From IMG/VR virus record IMGVR_UViG_3300035520_000308: DNA of 64,000 nt; one strand, given 5' to 3'. Positions 1,928 through 58,931 of the stretch are shown here, piece by piece. The position numbers were made by a program, and so were the translations under genes. This DNA is from an uncultured virus (IMG/VR IMGVR_UViG_3300035520_000308). Its lineage: Duplodnaviria > Heunggongvirae > Uroviricota > Caudoviricetes. The notes under the pieces are model-generated. The model was given only the letters and a program-made list of their open reading frames with translations. It did no database searches and was not told the origin of the DNA. Numbering within the stretch: position 1 is the first letter of the stretch; each line of letters opens with the position of its first letter.

Positions 1928-2755
1928 TTAAAGCACTCCTAAACTTCCCAATAATTCTATTTCATCTTCCGTCAATAAAGAGTATGTGAGACATTCTCCC
2001 TCAATAGCACCTCTTTGTGTCAGTTCCTCATAAAGTTCCTTTGGCAAATTTGAAAATCTTCCGTCTGCATTCTTGCTTTCGGATTTCTTTGGTGGTTTCC
2101 GTTTCAAGTTGTTCCTCTTCTCCCATGTGACGATTGCCGACTTCCAAGATTTCATTTTGTTCTTTCCAATCATCCATCCTTTAGATTCATAAAATGCTAC
2201 GAAAGATTCTGCATCTATCTGACTTCCAACCTCATCACAGTATTCTTTCACTTCGTCTACGTTAGGTGGGATAAAAACACTTTTCTTTTTAGTATTAGAT
2301 TTATCTAATACTTTTTCTTTTATATCTATACTATCCTCTACTATACTATACTTACCTATACTATCCTTACCTATACTGGGTATACCAACATTGGGTATAC
2401 CGATATTTGGTATACCACGTTCATAAGTACCATTTTCTGACAATGTTAGCTGTTCTTTTTCTTTGGTGCATTTGGATTCCCTATACCTGTCATTCCGCAA
2501 ATAATTATTAATTCTCCAATGCTTAATGACAATCACTCCGCTATCAAACACAATCACAAAACTTTTCGCAATCAATATGTTCATATCGTCCTGCGATGCA
2601 CCACATTGTCTCATAATTCCCTTTGGACTATTCACAAATCCGTCATCATCTGCAAACATTCCGAGAGTAAAATATAAACATCTAGCCGATAAAGGCATAT
2701 CCAAAAAACTGTCAGACAAAACTATTGTCTTTGAAAACATCCTACGTTCCGCCAA
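1928..2755 (-). CDS. Phage replisome organiser / replication initiator
   Basis: MAERRMF...FLDMPLSARCLYF..ADDDGF N-terminus; low-complexity SIGKDSIGK linker; C-terminal FYESKGWMIGKNKMKSWK motif. Confidence 0.8.
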   Translation of the reverse strand: MAERRMFSKTIVLSDSFLDMPLSARCLYFTLGMFADDDGFVNSPKGIMRQCGASQDDMNILIAKSFVIVFDSGVIVIKHWRINNYLRNDRYRESKCTKEKEQLTLSENGTYERGIPNIGIPNVGIPSIGKDSIGKYSIVEDSIDIKEKVLDKSNTKKKSVFIPPNVDEVKEYCDEVGSQIDAESFVAFYESKGWMIGKNKMKSWKSAIVTWEKRNNLKRKPPKKSESKNADGRFSNLPKELYEELTQRGAIEGECLTYSLLTEDEIELLGSLGVL

Positions 2756-2756
2756 T

Positions 2757-3110
2757 TCACAACACCACCTTTCTATCTGTAAAATTTTTTAACATTTTCC
2801 AATCATCCTCTAATGTTTGGATAGTTTCGTAAAATATCCCTTTGCCAAGTGTCTTTGCATATTTTCTTTCAAGAGTAGCACCTTCCGACCTATCCCATCC
2901 GTCCAAGAGATAGATGGCATCGCACATATCAAGCAATGTAATAGACATCTTCATGTATTCCACATAAGTAGTATCTTTCGGAAGATTCACATTTATCTTA
3001 GCTGGATTTATTACGGAATAATTCTTTTCTTTTAAATATTCTTCCGCTTTCGCAAATCTTTCCATGTAATCTGTTGTTCCTGTGATTTTCCCACTGATAT
3101 AAATTCTCAT
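2757..3110 (-). CDS. DUF4406 family (nucleoside deoxyribosyltransferase-like) protein
   Basis: RIYISGKITG, NPA, CDAIYLLDGWDRSEGATLE. Confidence 0.8.
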   Translation of the reverse strand: MRIYISGKITGTTDYMERFAKAEEYLKEKNYSVINPAKINVNLPKDTTYVEYMKMSITLLDMCDAIYLLDGWDRSEGATLERKYAKTLGKGIFYETIQTLEDDWKMLKNFTDRKVVL

Positions 3111-3553
3111 TCTTCATCGCTCCAATCTAATTTCTGTCCGCAATAAGGACAATAAAAGTAATGTCTCAATCTATACAAATAATCTCTTATTGTAAATCCA
3201 CAATATGGGCAATCAAAACTACTGTAAACTTTATATGCCTCTATTATGTTTACTGGCTTTTGAGGTATCTGTTTCTTCAACGATTCAATAGCCATATCCA
3301 AACAACCATAGGTAAATTTATTGAACTTACTCTCTTTCAGTTTATCTTCAAATTCCATGAATGAGCGGAGATTTTTCAAACCATCTATCGCATTTTTATC
3401 CGCCATATCAGCATTCTTACGCATATCGCCACTAATTGTTGGCTGTCTTTCTACCATAGGTATGATATCCCTAACAATTTCCATTGTACTTCTTTGTGTT
3501 CTTATTCGCTTTTCAAGGTCATCAATCAGCAAATCTGAATCAATCGGTCTCAC
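3107..3553 (-). CDS. Phage hypothetical protein with C-terminal Zn ribbon
   Basis: KQIPQKP followed by CPYC...CPYCGQKLDW. Confidence 0.6.
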   Translation of the reverse strand: MRPIDSDLLIDDLEKRIRTQRSTMEIVRDIIPMVERQPTISGDMRKNADMADKNAIDGLKNLRSFMEFEDKLKESKFNKFTYGCLDMAIESLKKQIPQKPVNIIEAYKVYSSFDCPYCGFTIRDYLYRLRHYFYCPYCGQKLDWSDEE

Positions 3554-15971: not shown

Positions 15972-16328
15972 TTATTCACACTCCTCATCATCCTTTTCTT
16001 TCACGTCAAGAATTTCAATTATTTTCAATGCCTGCTCATAGGTCAGATTATTACTTTGTGTTGTTGCCCTCATCAGATTTAACGCTCTGATTATCGTTCC
16101 TCTTTTTTTAATTCTTTCTATGTTATCTTCCGTTGGCACTGATAAATAATTTCTCGTTCGCCACCTATTATAACCTATCATTTCCCAACCATATTTATCA
16201 AATTGCGAATCAGATTTATCAATTCTAATTCTTCCAGTCGGTGTAATTCTCGTGACAGTTACAATGCGTTCTGTCCTTTCGTGTAATATCAATTTATCCC
16301 CAACATTTACGTTTAATGGTTCTCTCAT
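15972..16328 (-). CDS. Phage hypothetical protein (SH3-like beta barrel)
   Basis: VGDK...VTRITPTGRI. Confidence 0.5.
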   Translation of the reverse strand: MREPLNVNVGDKLILHERTERIVTVTRITPTGRIRIDKSDSQFDKYGWEMIGYNRWRTRNYLSVPTEDNIERIKKRGTIIRALNLMRATTQSNNLTYEQALKIIEILDVKEKDDEECE

Positions 16329-18894: not shown

Positions 18895-19539
18895 TTACAC
18901 CGCCTTTACTTCTGAAACATGGTATCTTCCATAACCGCTTGACCTACCGCTGCCAATTCCAAGTCCAAATCCTGCAAGATTAATAATGTTCATAATCTGT
19001 TCTGCACTATACACATTTTCCATATAAGAAACTGTAAATGTAGCACTCCAACCGCAAAACCTATTGAGATATACCAATACCGGACTTCCCTTTTTAGGGG
19101 ACATAAGTTTTTCATCTATAAAATGTTGTGTAAAAATAACAGGAACTAAGTCCTCAACAACATTCACACTTGCATCAATCTTTACCTTATACTTGTCAAT
19201 CTCATTTCTGACAACTGCATCACCAAATGACTTTTTAAGTCCGAATCCAGTAACGCAAGGTGCATTTTCCTTTAATGCCTGTTCCAATCCTTTTTCTGAA
19301 AAATCTGTAGGTTTCCCGTTCTTCCAGTGCATAGAAGTAATAATGCCCTCCCATACATTAGGTTTGGTTGTGTCCTTTGCTTTGTCCTTGCGTTTGTCAA
19401 TCAGTTCTTTTGCATTGATGTCATTCATCTTGTTAAGAACTAAATCTCCGTCACCTACGATTGTTACTTGCATATACTGTACTGCAAGCGGTTTTAATTC
19501 AATTACCTGTTCATTTTTTTGCTTTTTAGCTGTTCCCAT
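18895..19539 (-). CDS. RAMP/Cas7-like RNA-binding protein (putative guide-RNA effector, Vipr-like)
   Basis: First strand VTIVGDGDLV, helix GLKKSF, F.GW.ATF strand, C-terminal G-rich loop LAGFGLGIGSGRSSGYGRY typical of RAMPs; directly downstream of the pentamer array. Confidence 0.75.
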   Translation of the reverse strand: MGTAKKQKNEQVIELKPLAVQYMQVTIVGDGDLVLNKMNDINAKELIDKRKDKAKDTTKPNVWEGIITSMHWKNGKPTDFSEKGLEQALKENAPCVTGFGLKKSFGDAVVRNEIDKYKVKIDASVNVVEDLVPVIFTQHFIDEKLMSPKKGSPVLVYLNRFCGWSATFTVSYMENVYSAEQIMNIINLAGFGLGIGSGRSSGYGRYHVSEVKAV

Positions 19540-19577
19540 TTTAAAATCCTCCTTAAAATTTGATTTTTATTTCCACA

Positions 19578-20173
19578 TCTACCGCTTTGTCCGTGACATA
19601 ACAACTTGATATATTCTGTTCTATCCTGCGTTTTCGTTTTCTATATTGCTCTGTCCTGTTCAATCGTTTAGTATGGTTAGTGGCTATGCCACCGATAAAA
19701 CGGTAGAGTATGGTATTCTGTGCTATGGCTTGCTGTCCTGTTATAAATTAAACTGTATTAAAGTGTGTTATCTGCCTTGATAGGCATTGGGCTGACCTTA
19801 AAGTTTTGCAATATTTTGTTCTGTGTTGTCATGTTTTGTATTGTATTGTTACGTTGTATCATGCGTTATACTTTGTCAACTTTAAAGTCAACCGAATACC
19901 TACCAAAATTGCCCCATAATTCGTGAGTAAAGTGTTTTATGTTTTATTGTCTTGTTATGTATTTTTTTGTAATGTCCTATGATATCGTGTCTTTGGCAAG
20001 CTTTACTCACCAACTATGAAGCAATCGTCACTTGCATAAATATCGACTTTAGCAGTAAAAATAAAATTATGTTCTTTTTTATATTGTGATGTCGTGTTTT
20101 ATAGTTTCGTGTTCTATAGTGTTGTGTATTATTCTGTAATTACCGACCTAAAGCCGATATCTATACAAGTGAC
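19578..20173 (-). ncRNA. Array of five putative guide RNAs: (NN-AYA)12-14 pentamer tracts, four enclosed by unique long stems
   Basis: Period-5 tracts at 19612-19676, 19709-19773, 19807-19876, 19933-19997 and 20070-20139; inverted arms 19578-19602/19683-19707, 19777-19805/19878-19906, 19908-19932/20001-20025 and 20027-20052/20148-20173; most mismatches are G-U on the minus strand. Confidence 0.85.
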
Positions 20174-20190
20174 TAGCAGATATTAAATTG

Positions 20191-20619
20191 TCAAAGTGCC
20201 TCTATTTCTGAAAAAATCTTTTCAAGCTCTATAAGGTTTTCATATCTTCGCTTGAAAGCCTGCAATTCCATTTTCGCCCGCTTTAACAATGATTGATATT
20301 CATCCTCATTCTTAAGAATCATTGTGACAGGCTCATAAACCGATGTTGTCGTAGTAATCTGAAATACTCTTGTTGGCTCACTTTTTTCCTCAATCGGAGT
20401 AAACACAAACATTTGTATCATTTCTCTCGCTTGTATGTTCCTGTATTTATCTCCTGCTATCGTATCATTCCATTCAAAATCATTGTGTATGACCGAGTTT
20501 TTATCTCTTGCCAACTCCACAACGTTCTGCGGTGTAATGCTTTCAAGTTTGGATATTTCCTCATAGGCTTTATTTGCATCAGCCTTATATTTTGGGATTT
20601 TCCATGATACTTTTTCCAC
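20191..20619 (-). CDS. Conserved phage protein upstream of the array (putative accessory protein)
   Basis: ITPQNVVELAR..NSVIHNDFEWND..AG.KYR..QAR motif; stop codon about 17 nt before the first stem. Confidence 0.7.
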   Translation of the reverse strand: MEKVSWKIPKYKADANKAYEEISKLESITPQNVVELARDKNSVIHNDFEWNDTIAGDKYRNIQAREMIQMFVFTPIEEKSEPTRVFQITTTTSVYEPVTMILKNEDEYQSLLKRAKMELQAFKRRYENLIELEKIFSEIEAL

Positions 20620-22255: not shown

Positions 22256-22975
22256 TTAGAAACGCATCTGTGCGTTTTCGCTTTCGATTTCCTCTCTTAG
22301 ACACAATGGCAATTCATAAGAATTGATAATGTCAATTGCTTTTCCTGTCTGGTTTCTGTGTATAGCCTTGTAGGAAGTCACACCAAACTCACGTCTTAAC
22401 TGGTTTTCCAAATCTCTGTAAACTCTGCCACGTAAACTTGCATTATGATAAGCCTCGGAATCCTTGCCGCCTAAAAGCGGAACAATCTTTTTATTCTTTG
22501 CCTCTGTAATCTGCTGACACTCAATCGCAAGCAACGGCATTTCCTTTTTGAACTCTTGTAAATCTTTGTCTACTTCATCAATCTTCTGTTCCAGTTCCAT
22601 GTGTCCTTGTGCCAATAACTGTATCTGCCCCGCTGTTGTCTGTGGCACTGTGTATGTTCCTGTTCTTCTTAATGTTGGTAACACTTCGGATGTTATCCAA
22701 TGCTTAAATTTCTTTGCGTTAGGTAATTGACTTCCAATAATCAATCCATACAATCCTGATTCGTTTATCAATACTGTTTTTCTATTTTGTGTTCCGTCAA
22801 ACACTGTAGCAATTTTTCTGTCTTCTTCATCCGTATGACGTTTGATATCTCGACTACCGTTTCGGTACTCCAGCTTTTCTGTTATGTCTTTAGCGACAAA
22901 CCACGGCTCGTCATCAATAGTCACTGTTCGGATTTCTCCAAAGTCTTCATTGTTAAAAATCTGTAATTCGTTCAT
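22256..22975 (-). CDS. BRO-N / ORF6C phage antirepressor
   Basis: FNNEDFGEIRT..PWFVAKD, INESGLY, FKHWITSEVLP; C-terminal FGVTSYKAI. Confidence 0.9.
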   Translation of the reverse strand: MNELQIFNNEDFGEIRTVTIDDEPWFVAKDITEKLEYRNGSRDIKRHTDEEDRKIATVFDGTQNRKTVLINESGLYGLIIGSQLPNAKKFKHWITSEVLPTLRRTGTYTVPQTTAGQIQLLAQGHMELEQKIDEVDKDLQEFKKEMPLLAIECQQITEAKNKKIVPLLGGKDSEAYHNASLRGRVYRDLENQLRREFGVTSYKAIHRNQTGKAIDIINSYELPLCLREEIESENAQMRF

Positions 22976-35269: not shown

Positions 35270-36007
35270 TTAAAATTTGAATGTCTGCTGTCTGTTGGTA
35301 TTTTCAATCTGTTCTGCAATGAAGAATGGTGGCTCATACTTCTGTATCACTTCAATAGCGTTTTCGCACTGGCTACGCTTGATTGACTTGTACGATTTTA
35401 CACCGAAATTGTATTTCAGATTGGCATATAGGCTGTTATACAGTTTCGCCCGAAGACGTCTGTCATTGTATGCGTTTGATTGCTTACCGCCTAAGATTGC
35501 CACACCTTTCTTTTTCACTGCCTCTGTGATTTTATCTGCCTCTATCGGAAGTATTGGCAAATCCATTTCTAATTTGTCGATTCTGTCTGACAGATTGTCT
35601 ACTTTCTTATCAACTTGCTTTATTGCCTCATAATGCAGTTCAAGAAGTTTCATTGGATTATCTTGCAAGTTCTCCATTTGATATGTTCCGTTCTTTCGGA
35701 TAGATGGAAGTACCTCGGATGTTACCCATCGTTTGAATTTCTTTGCTCCCTCTAATTTACTTCCAAATATAAGAGAATATAATCCGCTTTCATTAACGAC
35801 AACCATATCTCTAAGCTGCCCCGCGTATTCCATTTGAAAATTTCTCCTATCATCTTTTTCAACTCTTTTAGCGGTAGCTGTTTTGGGTACCGCATAACCT
35901 AATGCATTAGCAATCTCGATTCCGACAAACCACGGCTCTCCATCAATAATAACTGTTCTGATTTCACCGAACTCTGAATTACTAAAAATCTGAATATCAC
36001 TCATCAT
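35270..36007 (-). CDS. BRO-N / ORF6C antirepressor (second copy)
   Basis: FSNSEFGEIRT, VNESGLY, FKRWVTSEVLPSIRK, FGVKSYKSI. Confidence 0.9.
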   Translation of the reverse strand: MMSDIQIFSNSEFGEIRTVIIDGEPWFVGIEIANALGYAVPKTATAKRVEKDDRRNFQMEYAGQLRDMVVVNESGLYSLIFGSKLEGAKKFKRWVTSEVLPSIRKNGTYQMENLQDNPMKLLELHYEAIKQVDKKVDNLSDRIDKLEMDLPILPIEADKITEAVKKKGVAILGGKQSNAYNDRRLRAKLYNSLYANLKYNFGVKSYKSIKRSQCENAIEVIQKYEPPFFIAEQIENTNRQQTFKF

Positions 36008-36020
36008 CAACACCGCCTTT

Positions 36021-36263
36021 CTAAACGACTGGAACATATTTGTCTTCCATAATACTGATTGCCAGTTTCATTCCAGAGATACCATAATACTTAACACATT
36101 CAACTGCGCAGTTTAAAACGATATCTCCAAGTTTTGAACATTCCTCTTTGTCCAACATCTTTTCCAGTTCGCTCATGAGCGGTTTGAAATAATCGTATGC
36201 GTCTCTAACGTCTTCATTGTTCATAATCTGCGTTACATACGCAAGCTCTAAAAATTTGTCCAT
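36021..36263 (-). CDS. Hypothetical protein
   Basis: AGAAAGGA RBS. Confidence 0.55.
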   Translation of the reverse strand: MDKFLELAYVTQIMNNEDVRDAYDYFKPLMSELEKMLDKEECSKLGDIVLNCAVECVKYYGISGMKLAISIMEDKYVPVV

Positions 36264-56843: not shown

Positions 56844-57728
56844 TTATGCAATGTCATTCTCAAATTCAATGCCATATTCTCTGCACTTTTCGACTAACTC
56901 ATCAAGGCTCTTTCTTCCAAGATTTCTAATTTGCATAAGTTGGCTTAAACTGTAATCTTCAAGTTGGCGCGATTGAGTAATTCCTGCGCGCTTAAGGCAA
57001 TTATATGCTCTTACGGATAAATTCATCTCCTCGATATATACGTTAGGGATAGGTACATCAAAACCGTCTTTGTTTAATTTTGCTATTTCTGCAAGTTTTT
57101 CTGTGCGTTCTTTTATGTCTTTTAATCTATTTGCGCTTTTTACCGTTTCTGCACACCTTTTCCGATATTCTTCCTCGGCTCTTTTAATCTTTTCTTGATA
57201 AGCCTTTTGCTCATCAATGATTTGTTGATACTTTTCAAGATATTCCTTGCCGATTGTAAATATTTTCACTCTGTTTGGGTGACGCAATTTTCTATGTGCC
57301 TTATGTTCAACTTGTCGTATTCTCTCTCTTGTGACATTAAAAATCTTTCCAATTTCCTCATACGTCATACCGTCTTCAAATCGGTAGCGGACTATCTTTG
57401 ATTCTCTGTCCGTAAGAGTTTGCAATGCAAATTCATAGCACTCGTCAAAATCAGATGCATATGCAACTTTGCCATCAAATACAGTATTTAAAAACTTCTC
57501 TTTCCAGTCGTATTCGATTTCAACATCTGCAACTGGAATATCCTCTTTGTACGCCCATTCTCTACGCACAAACTCTCTAAACTTGTCTGAGTTAATATTT
57601 TCCAATCTACAAGCTGATTGTTCACTTTCTCCACTCTCAACATGTTCAACGATATTCAACATACGAGTAAGGATATCTTTTGCGTTTGCATAAATCTCTT
57701 TCTTTTGCACTTTTTGCTTTCCTGCCAT
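56844..57728 (-). CDS. Sigma70 region 4 fused to RNA polymerase alpha-CTD-like domain
   Basis: [49 protein letters not shown]...[11 protein letters not shown]. Confidence 0.85.
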
Positions 57729-58812: not shown

Positions 58813-58931
58813 ACCTCCTGTGTTGATATTAAATGCCCACGCATATTTCCTGTGAATTATAAAAACAACGGACAGGCAATCACAGGTTTTGCTTTTCGCC
58901 CCGTCGGGCTATTCCGTTGGTTTTACCAATT

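What the first reader, a model, noticed from the sequence alone, without database searches (positions are those of the whole stretch)
20065..20139. Guide E decodes to a ParB-like N-terminal helix
Seen: NN series TT GA AT CA CT GA CG CT AA CG TC AT AA GA TA, giving (F/L)(D/E)(I/M)(Q/H)L(E/D)RL(K/N)RS(I/M)(K/N)(E/D)Y, e.g. QLERLKRSIKEY. This resembles the L..SI.E[FY]G motif of ParB/Srx-like domains common in phage packaging and methylase modules (recalled knowledge). It is a second, independent example of the codon-phased code.
Basis: partly seen in the sequence, partly recalled or inferred. Interest (0 to 1): 0.82.

Follow-up and report, generated by a model that had tools for sequence, protein, structure and literature searches.

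The report
Phage VIPR guide with ACA anchors
This stretch is one guide tract of a phage VIPR system, a CRISPR-like RNA-guided DNA silencer first described in 2026, written here with A-C/T-A instead of G-G-C/T as the fixed letters, and the proposed ParB target could not be found.

Summary
A ten-unit ANANN pattern matches 21 times in the window against 0.12 expected.

The tract is the loop of a hairpin with a 26-bp stem. It is one of five such tracts in the intergenic region 19578-20173. That region lies directly upstream of a 214-aa Cas7-like RAMP gene (18895-19539).

A profile of this protein family finds one ORF in Escherichia phage SUSP1 (E 1.1e-15). That ORF is flanked by GGYNN arrays, so it is the published Vipr. 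The locus is therefore a VIPR system (bioRxiv 10.64898/2026.04.26.720920). In VIPR, NN dinucleotides pair with DNA while skipping one base, usually the codon wobble.

New here are the G-free AYA anchor, the stem-closed guide loops and a different conserved partner gene. The architecture recurs in 56 of 57 distinct related upstream regions.

The ParB reading is not supported. Shorter seeds gave only chance-level hits. No target was found for any guide.

The parts
20068..20137 (-). Guide tract E: 14 pentamers A-Y-A-N-N. This is the finding.
   Evidence: All 14 units have A at positions 1 and 3.
20148..20173 (-). 5' arm of the stem that closes hairpin E
   Evidence: I3, 26 nt, 88% complementary. 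(34 pairs between the flanks). One search shows it about 90% conserved in L004 while the loop differs.
20027..20052 (-). 3' arm of the stem that closes hairpin E
19908..20025 (-). Hairpin D: stem arms 20001-20025 and 19908-19932, guide tract 19931-19990 (12 units)
   Evidence: I4.
19777..19906 (-). Hairpin C: stem arms 19878-19906 and 19777-19805, guide tract 19805-19874 (14 units, 2 irregular)
   Evidence: I1. This hairpin is absent from the closest relative L004.
19707..19771 (-). Tract B: 13 pentamer positions, 9 of them regular. It lies between hairpins and has no closing stem of its own.
   Evidence: phase 4.
19578..19707 (-). Hairpin A: stem arms 19679-19707 and 19578-19606, guide tract 19610-19674 (13 units)
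   Evidence: I2. Covariation of this stem across 18 loci is shown.
18895..19539 (-). vipr gene: 214-aa Cas7-like RAMP with G-rich loop GLGIGSGRSSGYGRY
20191..20619 (-). Conserved 142-aa partner gene (candidate vap), directly upstream of the array
   Evidence: Present on the same strand upstream of the array in 80 of 81 loci. Matches phrog_15946, unknown function. No Pfam family. No clear fold match. No similarity to SUSP1 vap1 (E 0.1).

Best explanation
Guide E is the variable tract of one vrRNA of a VIPR (Viral Interference Programmable Repeat) system carried by a temperate phage of Lachnospiraceae-type gut bacteria.

The minus strand of 19578-20173 is transcribed with the early operon into a multi-hairpin RNA. 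The Cas7-like Vipr protein (18895-19539) polymerises along each pentamer tract, one protomer per A-Y-A-N-N unit. It sequesters the fixed AYA triplet and presents the NN dinucleotides. These pair discontinuously with a DNA target, most likely skipping one target base per unit. That puts NN on codon positions 1-2 and makes the guide blind to wobble changes. The outcome is silencing of a competing mobile element.

Shown here: the periodic tract, its strand, the closing stems and their covariation, the homology of the protein to the SUSP1 Vipr and its Cas7 fold, the recurrence of the whole module in related phages, and the swapping of guide tracts between conserved stems.

Inferred from the published family: filament assembly, DNA binding, the 1-nt skip rule and silencing.

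Inferred by me: the 25-30-bp stems either cap both ends of each filament or are host RNase III cleavage sites that release the single guides. I also infer that the change of two G-loop residues (SUSP1 D177-W178 against S197-G198 here) underlies the switch from GGY to AYA.
For: Protein:
- A 60-sequence profile of the P0001 family hits a single ORF in phage SUSP1 (KT454805.2 28498-29052, minus strand; E 1.1e-15; model positions 21-212 of 216).
- That ORF has one GGYNN array upstream and three downstream, as the paper describes for the SUSP1 VIPR locus.
- hhalign gives probability 98.6%. BLASTP gives E 1e-5.
- The AF2 model has pLDDT 96.4. All top structural matches are Cas7-type RAMPs.

RNA:
- The minus strand folds at -166.5 kcal/mol, z -14.2. 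The plus strand folds at -136.2, z -2.5.
- Four tracts are closed by stems of 25-29 nt.
- 56 of 57 distinct upstream regions of related loci carry such arrays. The one miss was my coordinate error.
- From 137 unique tracts of 8-21 units: pos2 is C .63/T .21/A .14, and pos4 and pos5 carry 0.03 and 0.09 bits.
- 123 of 176 tract contexts have at least 15 pairs between their flanks, against 31 of 176 mismatched controls.
- Covariation score is 0.194 against 0.121 shuffled (0 of 500 shuffles reach it), with slid controls at 0.07-0.12.
- Between the window and L004, stems are about 90% identical while the NN of the aligned tract agree at about chance level.

Weak support:
- NN composition of the 137 tracts fits codon positions 1-2 (sense) better than the null by 79 bits. 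The other phases score negative.

Literature:
-.
Against: - The fixed triplet is AYA, not GGY. It is not one of the alternative motifs named in the text I could read: NNNGG, YNNNG, NNNNG and GAC, CAC, WGT, TGH.
- There is no 3' tail or pseudoknot as in the SUSP1 clade.
- No target was found under the 1-nt skip rule:
  - 6 exact IMG/VR scans found nothing, or one chance-like hit.
  - 2 metagenome scans gave nothing convincing.
  - A 14-unit pattern with up to 3 mismatches found nothing in 50 related phage genomes.
  - A 1.5-Mb local test of skips 0-3 showed no excess over shuffled guides for skips 0-2. The skip-3 hits inspected (8 of the 21 guides at 0.9 or more) were homologous arrays.
- The window's own four guides show no individual codon-phase preference.
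- Among homologous tracts, NN columns vary more (12.9%) than triplet columns (7.5%). That fits guides and neutral spacers alike.
Confidence: 0.85

Rival explanations
1. One reading: guide E is aimed at the conserved L..L..SI...G helix of ParB/Srx-like genes of rival phages, read in frame with NN on codon positions 1-2.
For: The decoded peptide [DE][IM][QH]L[DE]RL[KN]RS[IM][KN][DE]Y follows from the sequence. The resemblance to the ParB box is recalled knowledge, not tested by any search. None of 50 VIPR-carrying relatives, nor the window, has a ParB_N gene, so there would be no self-targeting.
Against: The 12-unit regex has 0 hits in IMG/VR, in metagenomes and in the window. The 9-unit core gave 22 hits in all. 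Each scores 19-24 of 28, none shows the predicted Gly after the Tyr codon, and the two best inspected are out of frame with the longest ORF. The antisense reading of the same NN series also gives an open peptide, so 'decodes to a plausible helix' discriminates little.
Confidence: 0.07
2. It is a VIPR-type guide, but this AYA clade uses another pairing rule or another kind of target than the published 1-nt skip on double-stranded DNA. Examples would be a different skip length, RNA or single-stranded DNA.
For: No target was found with the 1-nt skip rule in any scan. The residues that read the fixed triplet differ from SUSP1. The guide is presented as a closed loop, not as a free-ended RNA with a 3' cap.
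Against: The local test gave no excess for skips 0, 2 or 3 either. NN composition fits the wobble-skip phase best. The collection scans were exact-match only, so their silence is weak. The paper itself found IMG/VR targets at 80% or better for only 44 of 63 type III guides and 23 of 39 type V guides.
Confidence: 0.2
3. It is a protein-binding scaffold or sponge RNA. The AYA triplets are the ligand of an oligomeric RNA-binding protein, as the (G/U)AG triplets with 2-3-nt spacers are for TRAP (recalled), and the NN are meaningless spacers.
For: There is a fixed triplet plus a 2-nt variable spacer with 12-14 units per loop. NN columns drift faster than triplet columns. No target was found.
Against: The adjacent, always-linked protein is a homologue of Vipr, for which NN-directed DNA recognition was shown experimentally. 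Whole tracts are exchanged between conserved stems, which looks like reprogramming rather than drift.
Confidence: 0.06
4. It is a DNA-level element, such as an origin, iterons or bent DNA, and not an RNA.
For: The region lies in the replication/recombination module, near SSB, RecT and an SbcC-like ATPase.
Against: There is a strong strand asymmetry of folding energy: z -14.2 on the minus strand against -2.5 on the plus strand. Compensatory changes occur in the stems. The region is homologous in context to a system with sequenced vrRNAs.
Confidence: 0.02

Closest known systems
Type II VIPR of Escherichia phage SUSP1 and the Pseudomonas fulva prophage (bioRxiv 10.64898/2026.04.26.720920 and 10.64898/2026.04.26.720927)
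   Same: Both are phage-borne and have a single small Cas7-like Vipr. The Vipr proteins are homologous: profile E 1.1e-15 and hhalign probability 98.6%. The guide RNAs lie next to vipr on the same strand. They are built of about 9-16 five-base units with a fixed triplet and hypervariable NN. A small accessory gene is present. There is no CRISPR array.
   Different: The fixed triplet is A-Y-A, not G-G-Y. The G-loop residues aligned to SUSP1 D177 and W178, which read G1 and G2, are S197 and G198 here; R179 aligns to R199 and is kept. Each tract is the loop of a hairpin with a 25-30-bp stem, instead of being followed by a 3' pseudoknot tail. The partner gene lies upstream of the array and shows no similarity to vap1. 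The host is a Gram-positive gut anaerobe. Targets are unknown.
Non-canonical VIPR arrays reported from entropy periodicity (bioRxiv 10.64898/2026.10.21.760802; passages and section 4.22 read)
   Same: They have period-5 arrays with a fixed triplet other than GGY, next to a Vipr-like fold. The preprint reports 21 such clusters with 6,318 sequences.
   Different: The motifs named in the readable text are GAC, CAC, WGT and TGH. AYA is not named. Fig. S10, which lists all patterns, could not be seen, so prior publication of this exact motif cannot be excluded. No hairpin-closed architecture is mentioned in the passages read.
Class 1 CRISPR backbone (Cas7/Csm3/Cmr4 on crRNA)
   Different: The period is 5 with 2 paired bases, not 6 with 5 paired bases. 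There is no repeat-spacer array. No Cas5, Cas6, Cas10 or adaptation genes turned up in the 80 window ORFs scanned. Each guide has its own unique stem rather than a shared repeat.
TRAP-type triplet-repeat RNA recognition (recalled from textbooks; no call)
   Same: A fixed triplet plus a 2-nt spacer is repeated 11-14 times in unstructured RNA.
   Different: No TRAP-like protein turned up in the Pfam scans. The linked protein is a RAMP. The published family uses the NN, not only the triplets.

Membership tests
VIPR system (Vipr + vrRNA) | Vipr protein: minimal single-RRM RAMP with G-rich loop and thumb, Cas7-like fold | tested here: met
VIPR system (Vipr + vrRNA) | Sequence homology to an experimentally characterised Vipr | tested here: met
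   Profile A1 against the whole SUSP1 genome gives one ORF at E 1.1e-15. That ORF is flanked by GGYNN arrays. hhalign gives 98.6% over 68 C-terminal columns. BLASTP gives E 1e-5.
VIPR system (Vipr + vrRNA) | Adjacent non-coding tandem 5-nt repeats: a conserved trinucleotide alternating with hypervariable NN, about 9-16 units, same strand as vipr | tested here: met
   See for the tracts. In one search, pos4 and pos5 carry 0.03 and 0.09 bits, and tracts have 8-21 units. settle the strand. Arrays occur in 56 of 57 distinct upstream regions.
VIPR system (Vipr + vrRNA) | Canonical GGY (YNNGG) consensus, or a published G-containing variant (NNNGG, YNNNG, NNNNG) | tested here: not met
   The consensus is A(.84)-C/T/A-A(.96)-N-N, and G at pos2 is 0.02. 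Positions 1 and 3 were partly imposed by my detection rule, but the raw tracts show the same pattern.
VIPR system (Vipr + vrRNA) | Conserved structured 3' tail (pseudoknot) after the repeat tract; this is a feature of the SUSP1 clade | tested here: not met
   Instead, the 5' and 3' flanks pair with each other into a 25-30-bp closing stem. Stem sequences differ between hairpins of one locus.
VIPR system (Vipr + vrRNA) | Non-CRISPR context: no CRISPR array and no other cas genes | tested here: met
   The 80 window ORFs scanned against Pfam gave no Cas family above cut-off; the only related hit is a sub-threshold Cas12f1-like TNB match at 3107-3553. TRF on 15-26 kb found no CRISPR-like array. No dedicated CRISPR finder was run on the whole window.
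VIPR system (Vipr + vrRNA) | Conserved accessory gene (vap) | tested here: inconclusive
VIPR system (Vipr + vrRNA) | vrRNAs are expressed and co-purify with Vipr | not testable with these tools
   This needs small-RNA sequencing and a pull-down.
VIPR system (Vipr + vrRNA) | NN match natural targets in rival mobile elements under the 1-nt skip rule, with the skip on the wobble position | tested here: inconclusive
   No hit passed beyond chance. The collection scans allow exact matches only. NN composition weakly favours the wobble-skip phase.
   There are 0 regex hits. None of the 22 core hits shows the predicted Gly after the Tyr codon; their ORFs were not scanned for ParB_N. ParB_N is found in 0 of 50 related phages.
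CRISPR-Cas class 1 effector | Repeat-spacer array plus Cas5, Cas6 and a large subunit | tested here: not met
   No such genes or arrays were found. Only the Cas7-like fold is shared.

The most novel reading that the evidence does not exclude
The AYA/NN clade is a further, not yet classified VIPR type of Gram-positive gut prophages. It has a G-free anchor read by a remodelled G-loop (S-G-R in place of D-W-R). Its guides are displayed as 60-95-nt loops closed by unique 25-30-bp stems. These stems either cap both filament ends or are cut by host RNase III, a maturation route not described for VIPR. It has its own 142-aa partner protein. Its pairing rule or target class may differ from the published 1-nt skip on double-stranded DNA, since none of nine scans found a target.
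Probability: 0.3. Interest if true: 0.7.

Novelty: new variant of a known kind. Interest (0 to 1): 0.45.

Why it matters
VIPR was described only in 2026, and its code was worked out on GGY-type guides of Proteobacteria phages.

A large natural clade uses A-Y-A anchors with changed G-loop residues. The family has 2,371 protein clusters at 90% identity, mostly from gut metagenomes and Lachnospiraceae. This clade is a ready-made specificity swap. It points to the protein positions that probably read the fixed triplet, and it offers an orthogonal Vipr/vrRNA pair for multiplexed programmable silencing.

The stem-closed loop layout raises a concrete question about how guides are matured and how a filament on a closed loop engages DNA.

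For gut ecology, it suggests that temperate Lachnospiraceae phages carry 2-7 programmable silencers each, whose targets are still unknown.

Tried and rejected
Target searches, all negative or chance-level:
- The guide E 9-unit core found 1 hit in IMG/VR (L094, 22/28, in the shorter overlapping frame). It found 21 hits in metagenomes at 19-24/28. The best, L096 at 24/28, is out of frame with a 430-codon ORF. About 0.4 such hits are expected by chance among 21.
- Guide D, 12 units.
- Window guide A, units 4-13.
- The two commonest family guides.
- Guide E, 14 units with up to 3 mismatches, in 50 related phage genomes.
- A local 1.5-Mb database with skips 0-3 for 137 guides against shuffled guides. 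The only excess, at skip 3, was unmasked homologous arrays in the guides inspected.

Other searches that led nowhere:
- tblastn and blastn against 50,697 GenBank phages: no match.
- The genome-contig scan with the single protein gave only one weak Selenomonas hit without an array.
- Rfam: nothing at gathering score in the region. At E up to 1 there is only a chance match to a plant miRNA hairpin.
- No RNA holder listed among the public runs.
- RNAalifold on a crude 18-sequence alignment predicted no pairs. Covariation was then counted on a structure taken from the window's own fold, which biases the paired-cell measure.
- The position-wise substitution test does not discriminate guides from spacers.
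- The downstream AAA_15/SbcC-like ATPase was rejected as the accessory gene. It is found in only 33 of 81 loci and at varying positions.
- A whole genome for the window is not held. The genome search could not be centred on Lachnospiraceae.
- The supplementary PDF of the VIPR paper has no text hit for Lachnospir*, Clostridi*, Bacillota or ACA. Its figures S16-S17 and data tables could not be seen.

Full report
**What is there**

The finding lies in a 650-bp gene-free stretch (19540-20190) between two minus-strand genes of a phage-like window. The window carries portal, terminase, tail, endolysin, SSB, RecT and anti-repressor genes.

A ten-unit ANANN pattern with up to 2 mismatches matches 21 times in the window, against 0.12 expected. 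Twenty of the matches fall in 19612-20142 on the minus strand. The remaining one is a 15-nt coding repeat.

**Anatomy of the region**

There are five such tracts, here called A to E:
- A: 19610-19674, 13 units.
- B: 19707-19771, 9 of 13 units regular.
- C: 19805-19874, 14 units.
- D: 19931-19990, 12 units.
- E: 20068-20137, 14 units.

Four of them (A, C, D, E) are the loops of hairpins whose stems are 25-29 nt long and 79-88% complementary on the DNA.

As RNA, the minus strand folds at -166.5 kcal/mol (z -14.2). The plus strand folds at -136.2 (z -2.5). So the many A·C mismatches of the plus strand are G·U pairs on the minus strand, and the RNA runs in the same direction as the genes.

A Shine-Dalgarno sequence and the ATG of a 214-aa gene (18895-19539) follow directly. 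Rfam holds no family for the region.

**The neighbouring protein**

The 214-aa protein (P0001) ends in a glycine-rich loop and touches Pfam RAMPs below the cut-off.

The family is large. It has 2,371 clusters at 90% identity and 569 clusters at 50% identity with E up to 0.001. None carries an informative name: the few names shown are 'hypothetical protein', one from a Lachnospiraceae MAG.

**What it is**

A literature search led to the 2026 preprints on VIPR systems.

I read the Results and four Methods sections of 10.64898/2026.04.26.720920. A phage-encoded minimal RAMP (Vipr) binds vrRNAs of 9-16 YNNGG units. The NN pair with double-stranded DNA while one target base per unit is skipped. The skipped base mostly falls on the codon wobble position. 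Natural targets are rival phages and satellites.

I read two sections of the cryo-EM preprint 10.64898/2026.04.26.720927. One protomer sits on each repeat. G1 is read by H17 and D177, G2 by R138 and W178, and Y3 sits in a pocket with R179.

I tested membership directly. The 60-sequence profile of the P0001 family finds exactly one ORF in the 90.7-kb SUSP1 genome (E 1.1e-15). That ORF has one GGYNN array upstream and three downstream, as the paper describes. hhalign gives 98.6% probability.

In the pairwise alignment, the SUSP1 G-loop G-V-G-D-W-R corresponds to G-I-G-S-G-R here. The two residues that read the guanines are replaced, and the arginine is kept. This fits a switch of the fixed triplet from GGY to AYA. 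That link is my inference.

**Is the architecture general?**

From 80 IMG/VR loci encoding relatives of 67-86% identity, plus L002 at 60% identity, 56 of 57 distinct upstream regions carry arrays. The one miss was a coordinate I had mistyped.

The 137 unique tracts of 8-21 units give this logo:
- pos1: A .84, G .12.
- pos2: C .63, T .21, A .14.
- pos3: A .96.
- pos4 and pos5: 0.03 and 0.09 bits.

My detection rule required A/G at pos1 and A at pos3 in most units. Only pos2, pos4 and pos5 are therefore free estimates.

In 123 of 176 tract contexts, at least 15 base pairs form between the 50-nt flanks (median 23). In controls with a foreign 3' flank the figure is 31 of 176.

For the hairpin next to the gene, 18 loci give a covariation score of 0.194 against 0.121 in shuffles (0 of 500 shuffles reach it). 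Slid controls give 0.07-0.12, and 18 pairs change on both sides. The structure was taken from the window's own fold, which favours it.

Between the window and its closest relative L004, stems are about 90% identical. The tract in hairpin E keeps only the A-frame, and one whole hairpin (C) is absent from L004. So there are conserved scaffolds with exchangeable guide tracts.

**The partner gene**

The gene always linked to the module is the 142-aa gene upstream of the array (20191-20619). It is present on the same strand in 80 of 81 loci.

The downstream AAA_15/SbcC-like ATPase is found in only 33 of 81 loci, and at varying places.

The 142-aa protein has no Pfam family, no similarity to SUSP1 vap1 and no fold match. 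I call it a candidate vap, function unknown.

**The ParB claim and the code**

- The regex has no match in IMG/VR, in the metagenome collection or in the window.
- A 9-unit core found one IMG/VR hit and 21 metagenome hits with totals of 19-24 of 28. That is the number and quality expected by chance, and the two best inspected are out of frame with the longest ORF.
- Fourteen units with up to 3 mismatches match none of 50 related phage genomes.
- ParB_N is absent from the window and from those 50 genomes.

Three other window or family guides and guide D also found nothing.

A local test of skips 0-3 on 1.5 Mb showed no excess over shuffled guides, apart from homologous arrays.

One weak positive remains. 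The NN composition of all 137 tracts fits codon positions 1-2 in sense better than a strand- and phase-averaged null by 79 bits, while the other two phases score negative. The tracts are not independent, and an A/G-rich loop could mimic this.

All collection scans were exact-match only. The VIPR paper used an 80% threshold and still found targets for only 44 of 63 type III guides and 23 of 39 type V guides in IMG/VR. So the silence is weak evidence.

**Comparison and novelty**

The system is a member of the VIPR family by protein homology and by RNA design. It fails the canonical GGY feature and lacks the SUSP1-type 3' tail.

The readable text of the first preprint lists NNNGG, YNNNG and NNNNG as alternatives. 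A later preprint (10.64898/2026.10.21.760802; passages and section 4.22 read) reports 21 clusters with other triplets and names GAC, CAC, WGT and TGH. AYA and stem-closed loops are not named in what I could read. The figures and data tables that would settle this were not visible.

This scan has met other VIPR variants on other DNA, but none with this anchor among the notes returned.

My verdict is a new variant of a known kind. The guide idea is right, the ParB target is unsupported, and the target is unknown.

Noticed in passing
window 2327-2374 (-), inside ORF 1928-2755: This is the only other period-5 signal in the window. It is a coding 15-nt repeat translating to SIGKD SIGKY SIVED SIDIK. 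It is not a guide tract.
   Followed up: yes
window 56844-57728 (-): A 294-aa phage protein combines Sigma70 region 4 (E 1.5e-19) with an RNA polymerase alpha C-terminal domain (E 7e-21) in one chain. This is an unusual fusion for a transcription factor.
   Followed up: no
window 58849-58919 (-): An int-alpA RNA (Rfam RF02996, 52.5 bits, above gathering score) lies next to a 350-aa gene with no Pfam match.
   Followed up: no
window 15972-16328 (-): A Phage_ProQ_C_like protein (E 2.9e-5, just below the Pfam cut-off; phrog_9662) lies three genes downstream of vipr. It is not linked to the module in relatives: 1 of 81 loci.
   Followed up: partly
window 22256-22975 and 35270-36037 (-): There are two Bro-N + ORF6C anti-repressor paralogues in one phage, one in the early region and one among the tail genes.
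   Followed up: no
L004 9290-10000 versus window 19540-20200: The closest relative lacks hairpin C altogether. It shares only the first six or so units of tract A before diverging. This points to gain and loss of whole guide cassettes and to recombination inside a tract.
   Followed up: partly
L002 2500-2780: A 60%-identical relative uses mostly GCA/ACA as the fixed triplet, with runs such as GCAGG GCAGA repeated three times. The first anchor base is therefore R rather than A in part of the clade.
   Followed up: partly
G001-G050 (50 IMG/VR phage genomes with this module): None carries a ParB_N domain, although the same search rings in 11 of 14 control genomes.
   Followed up: no
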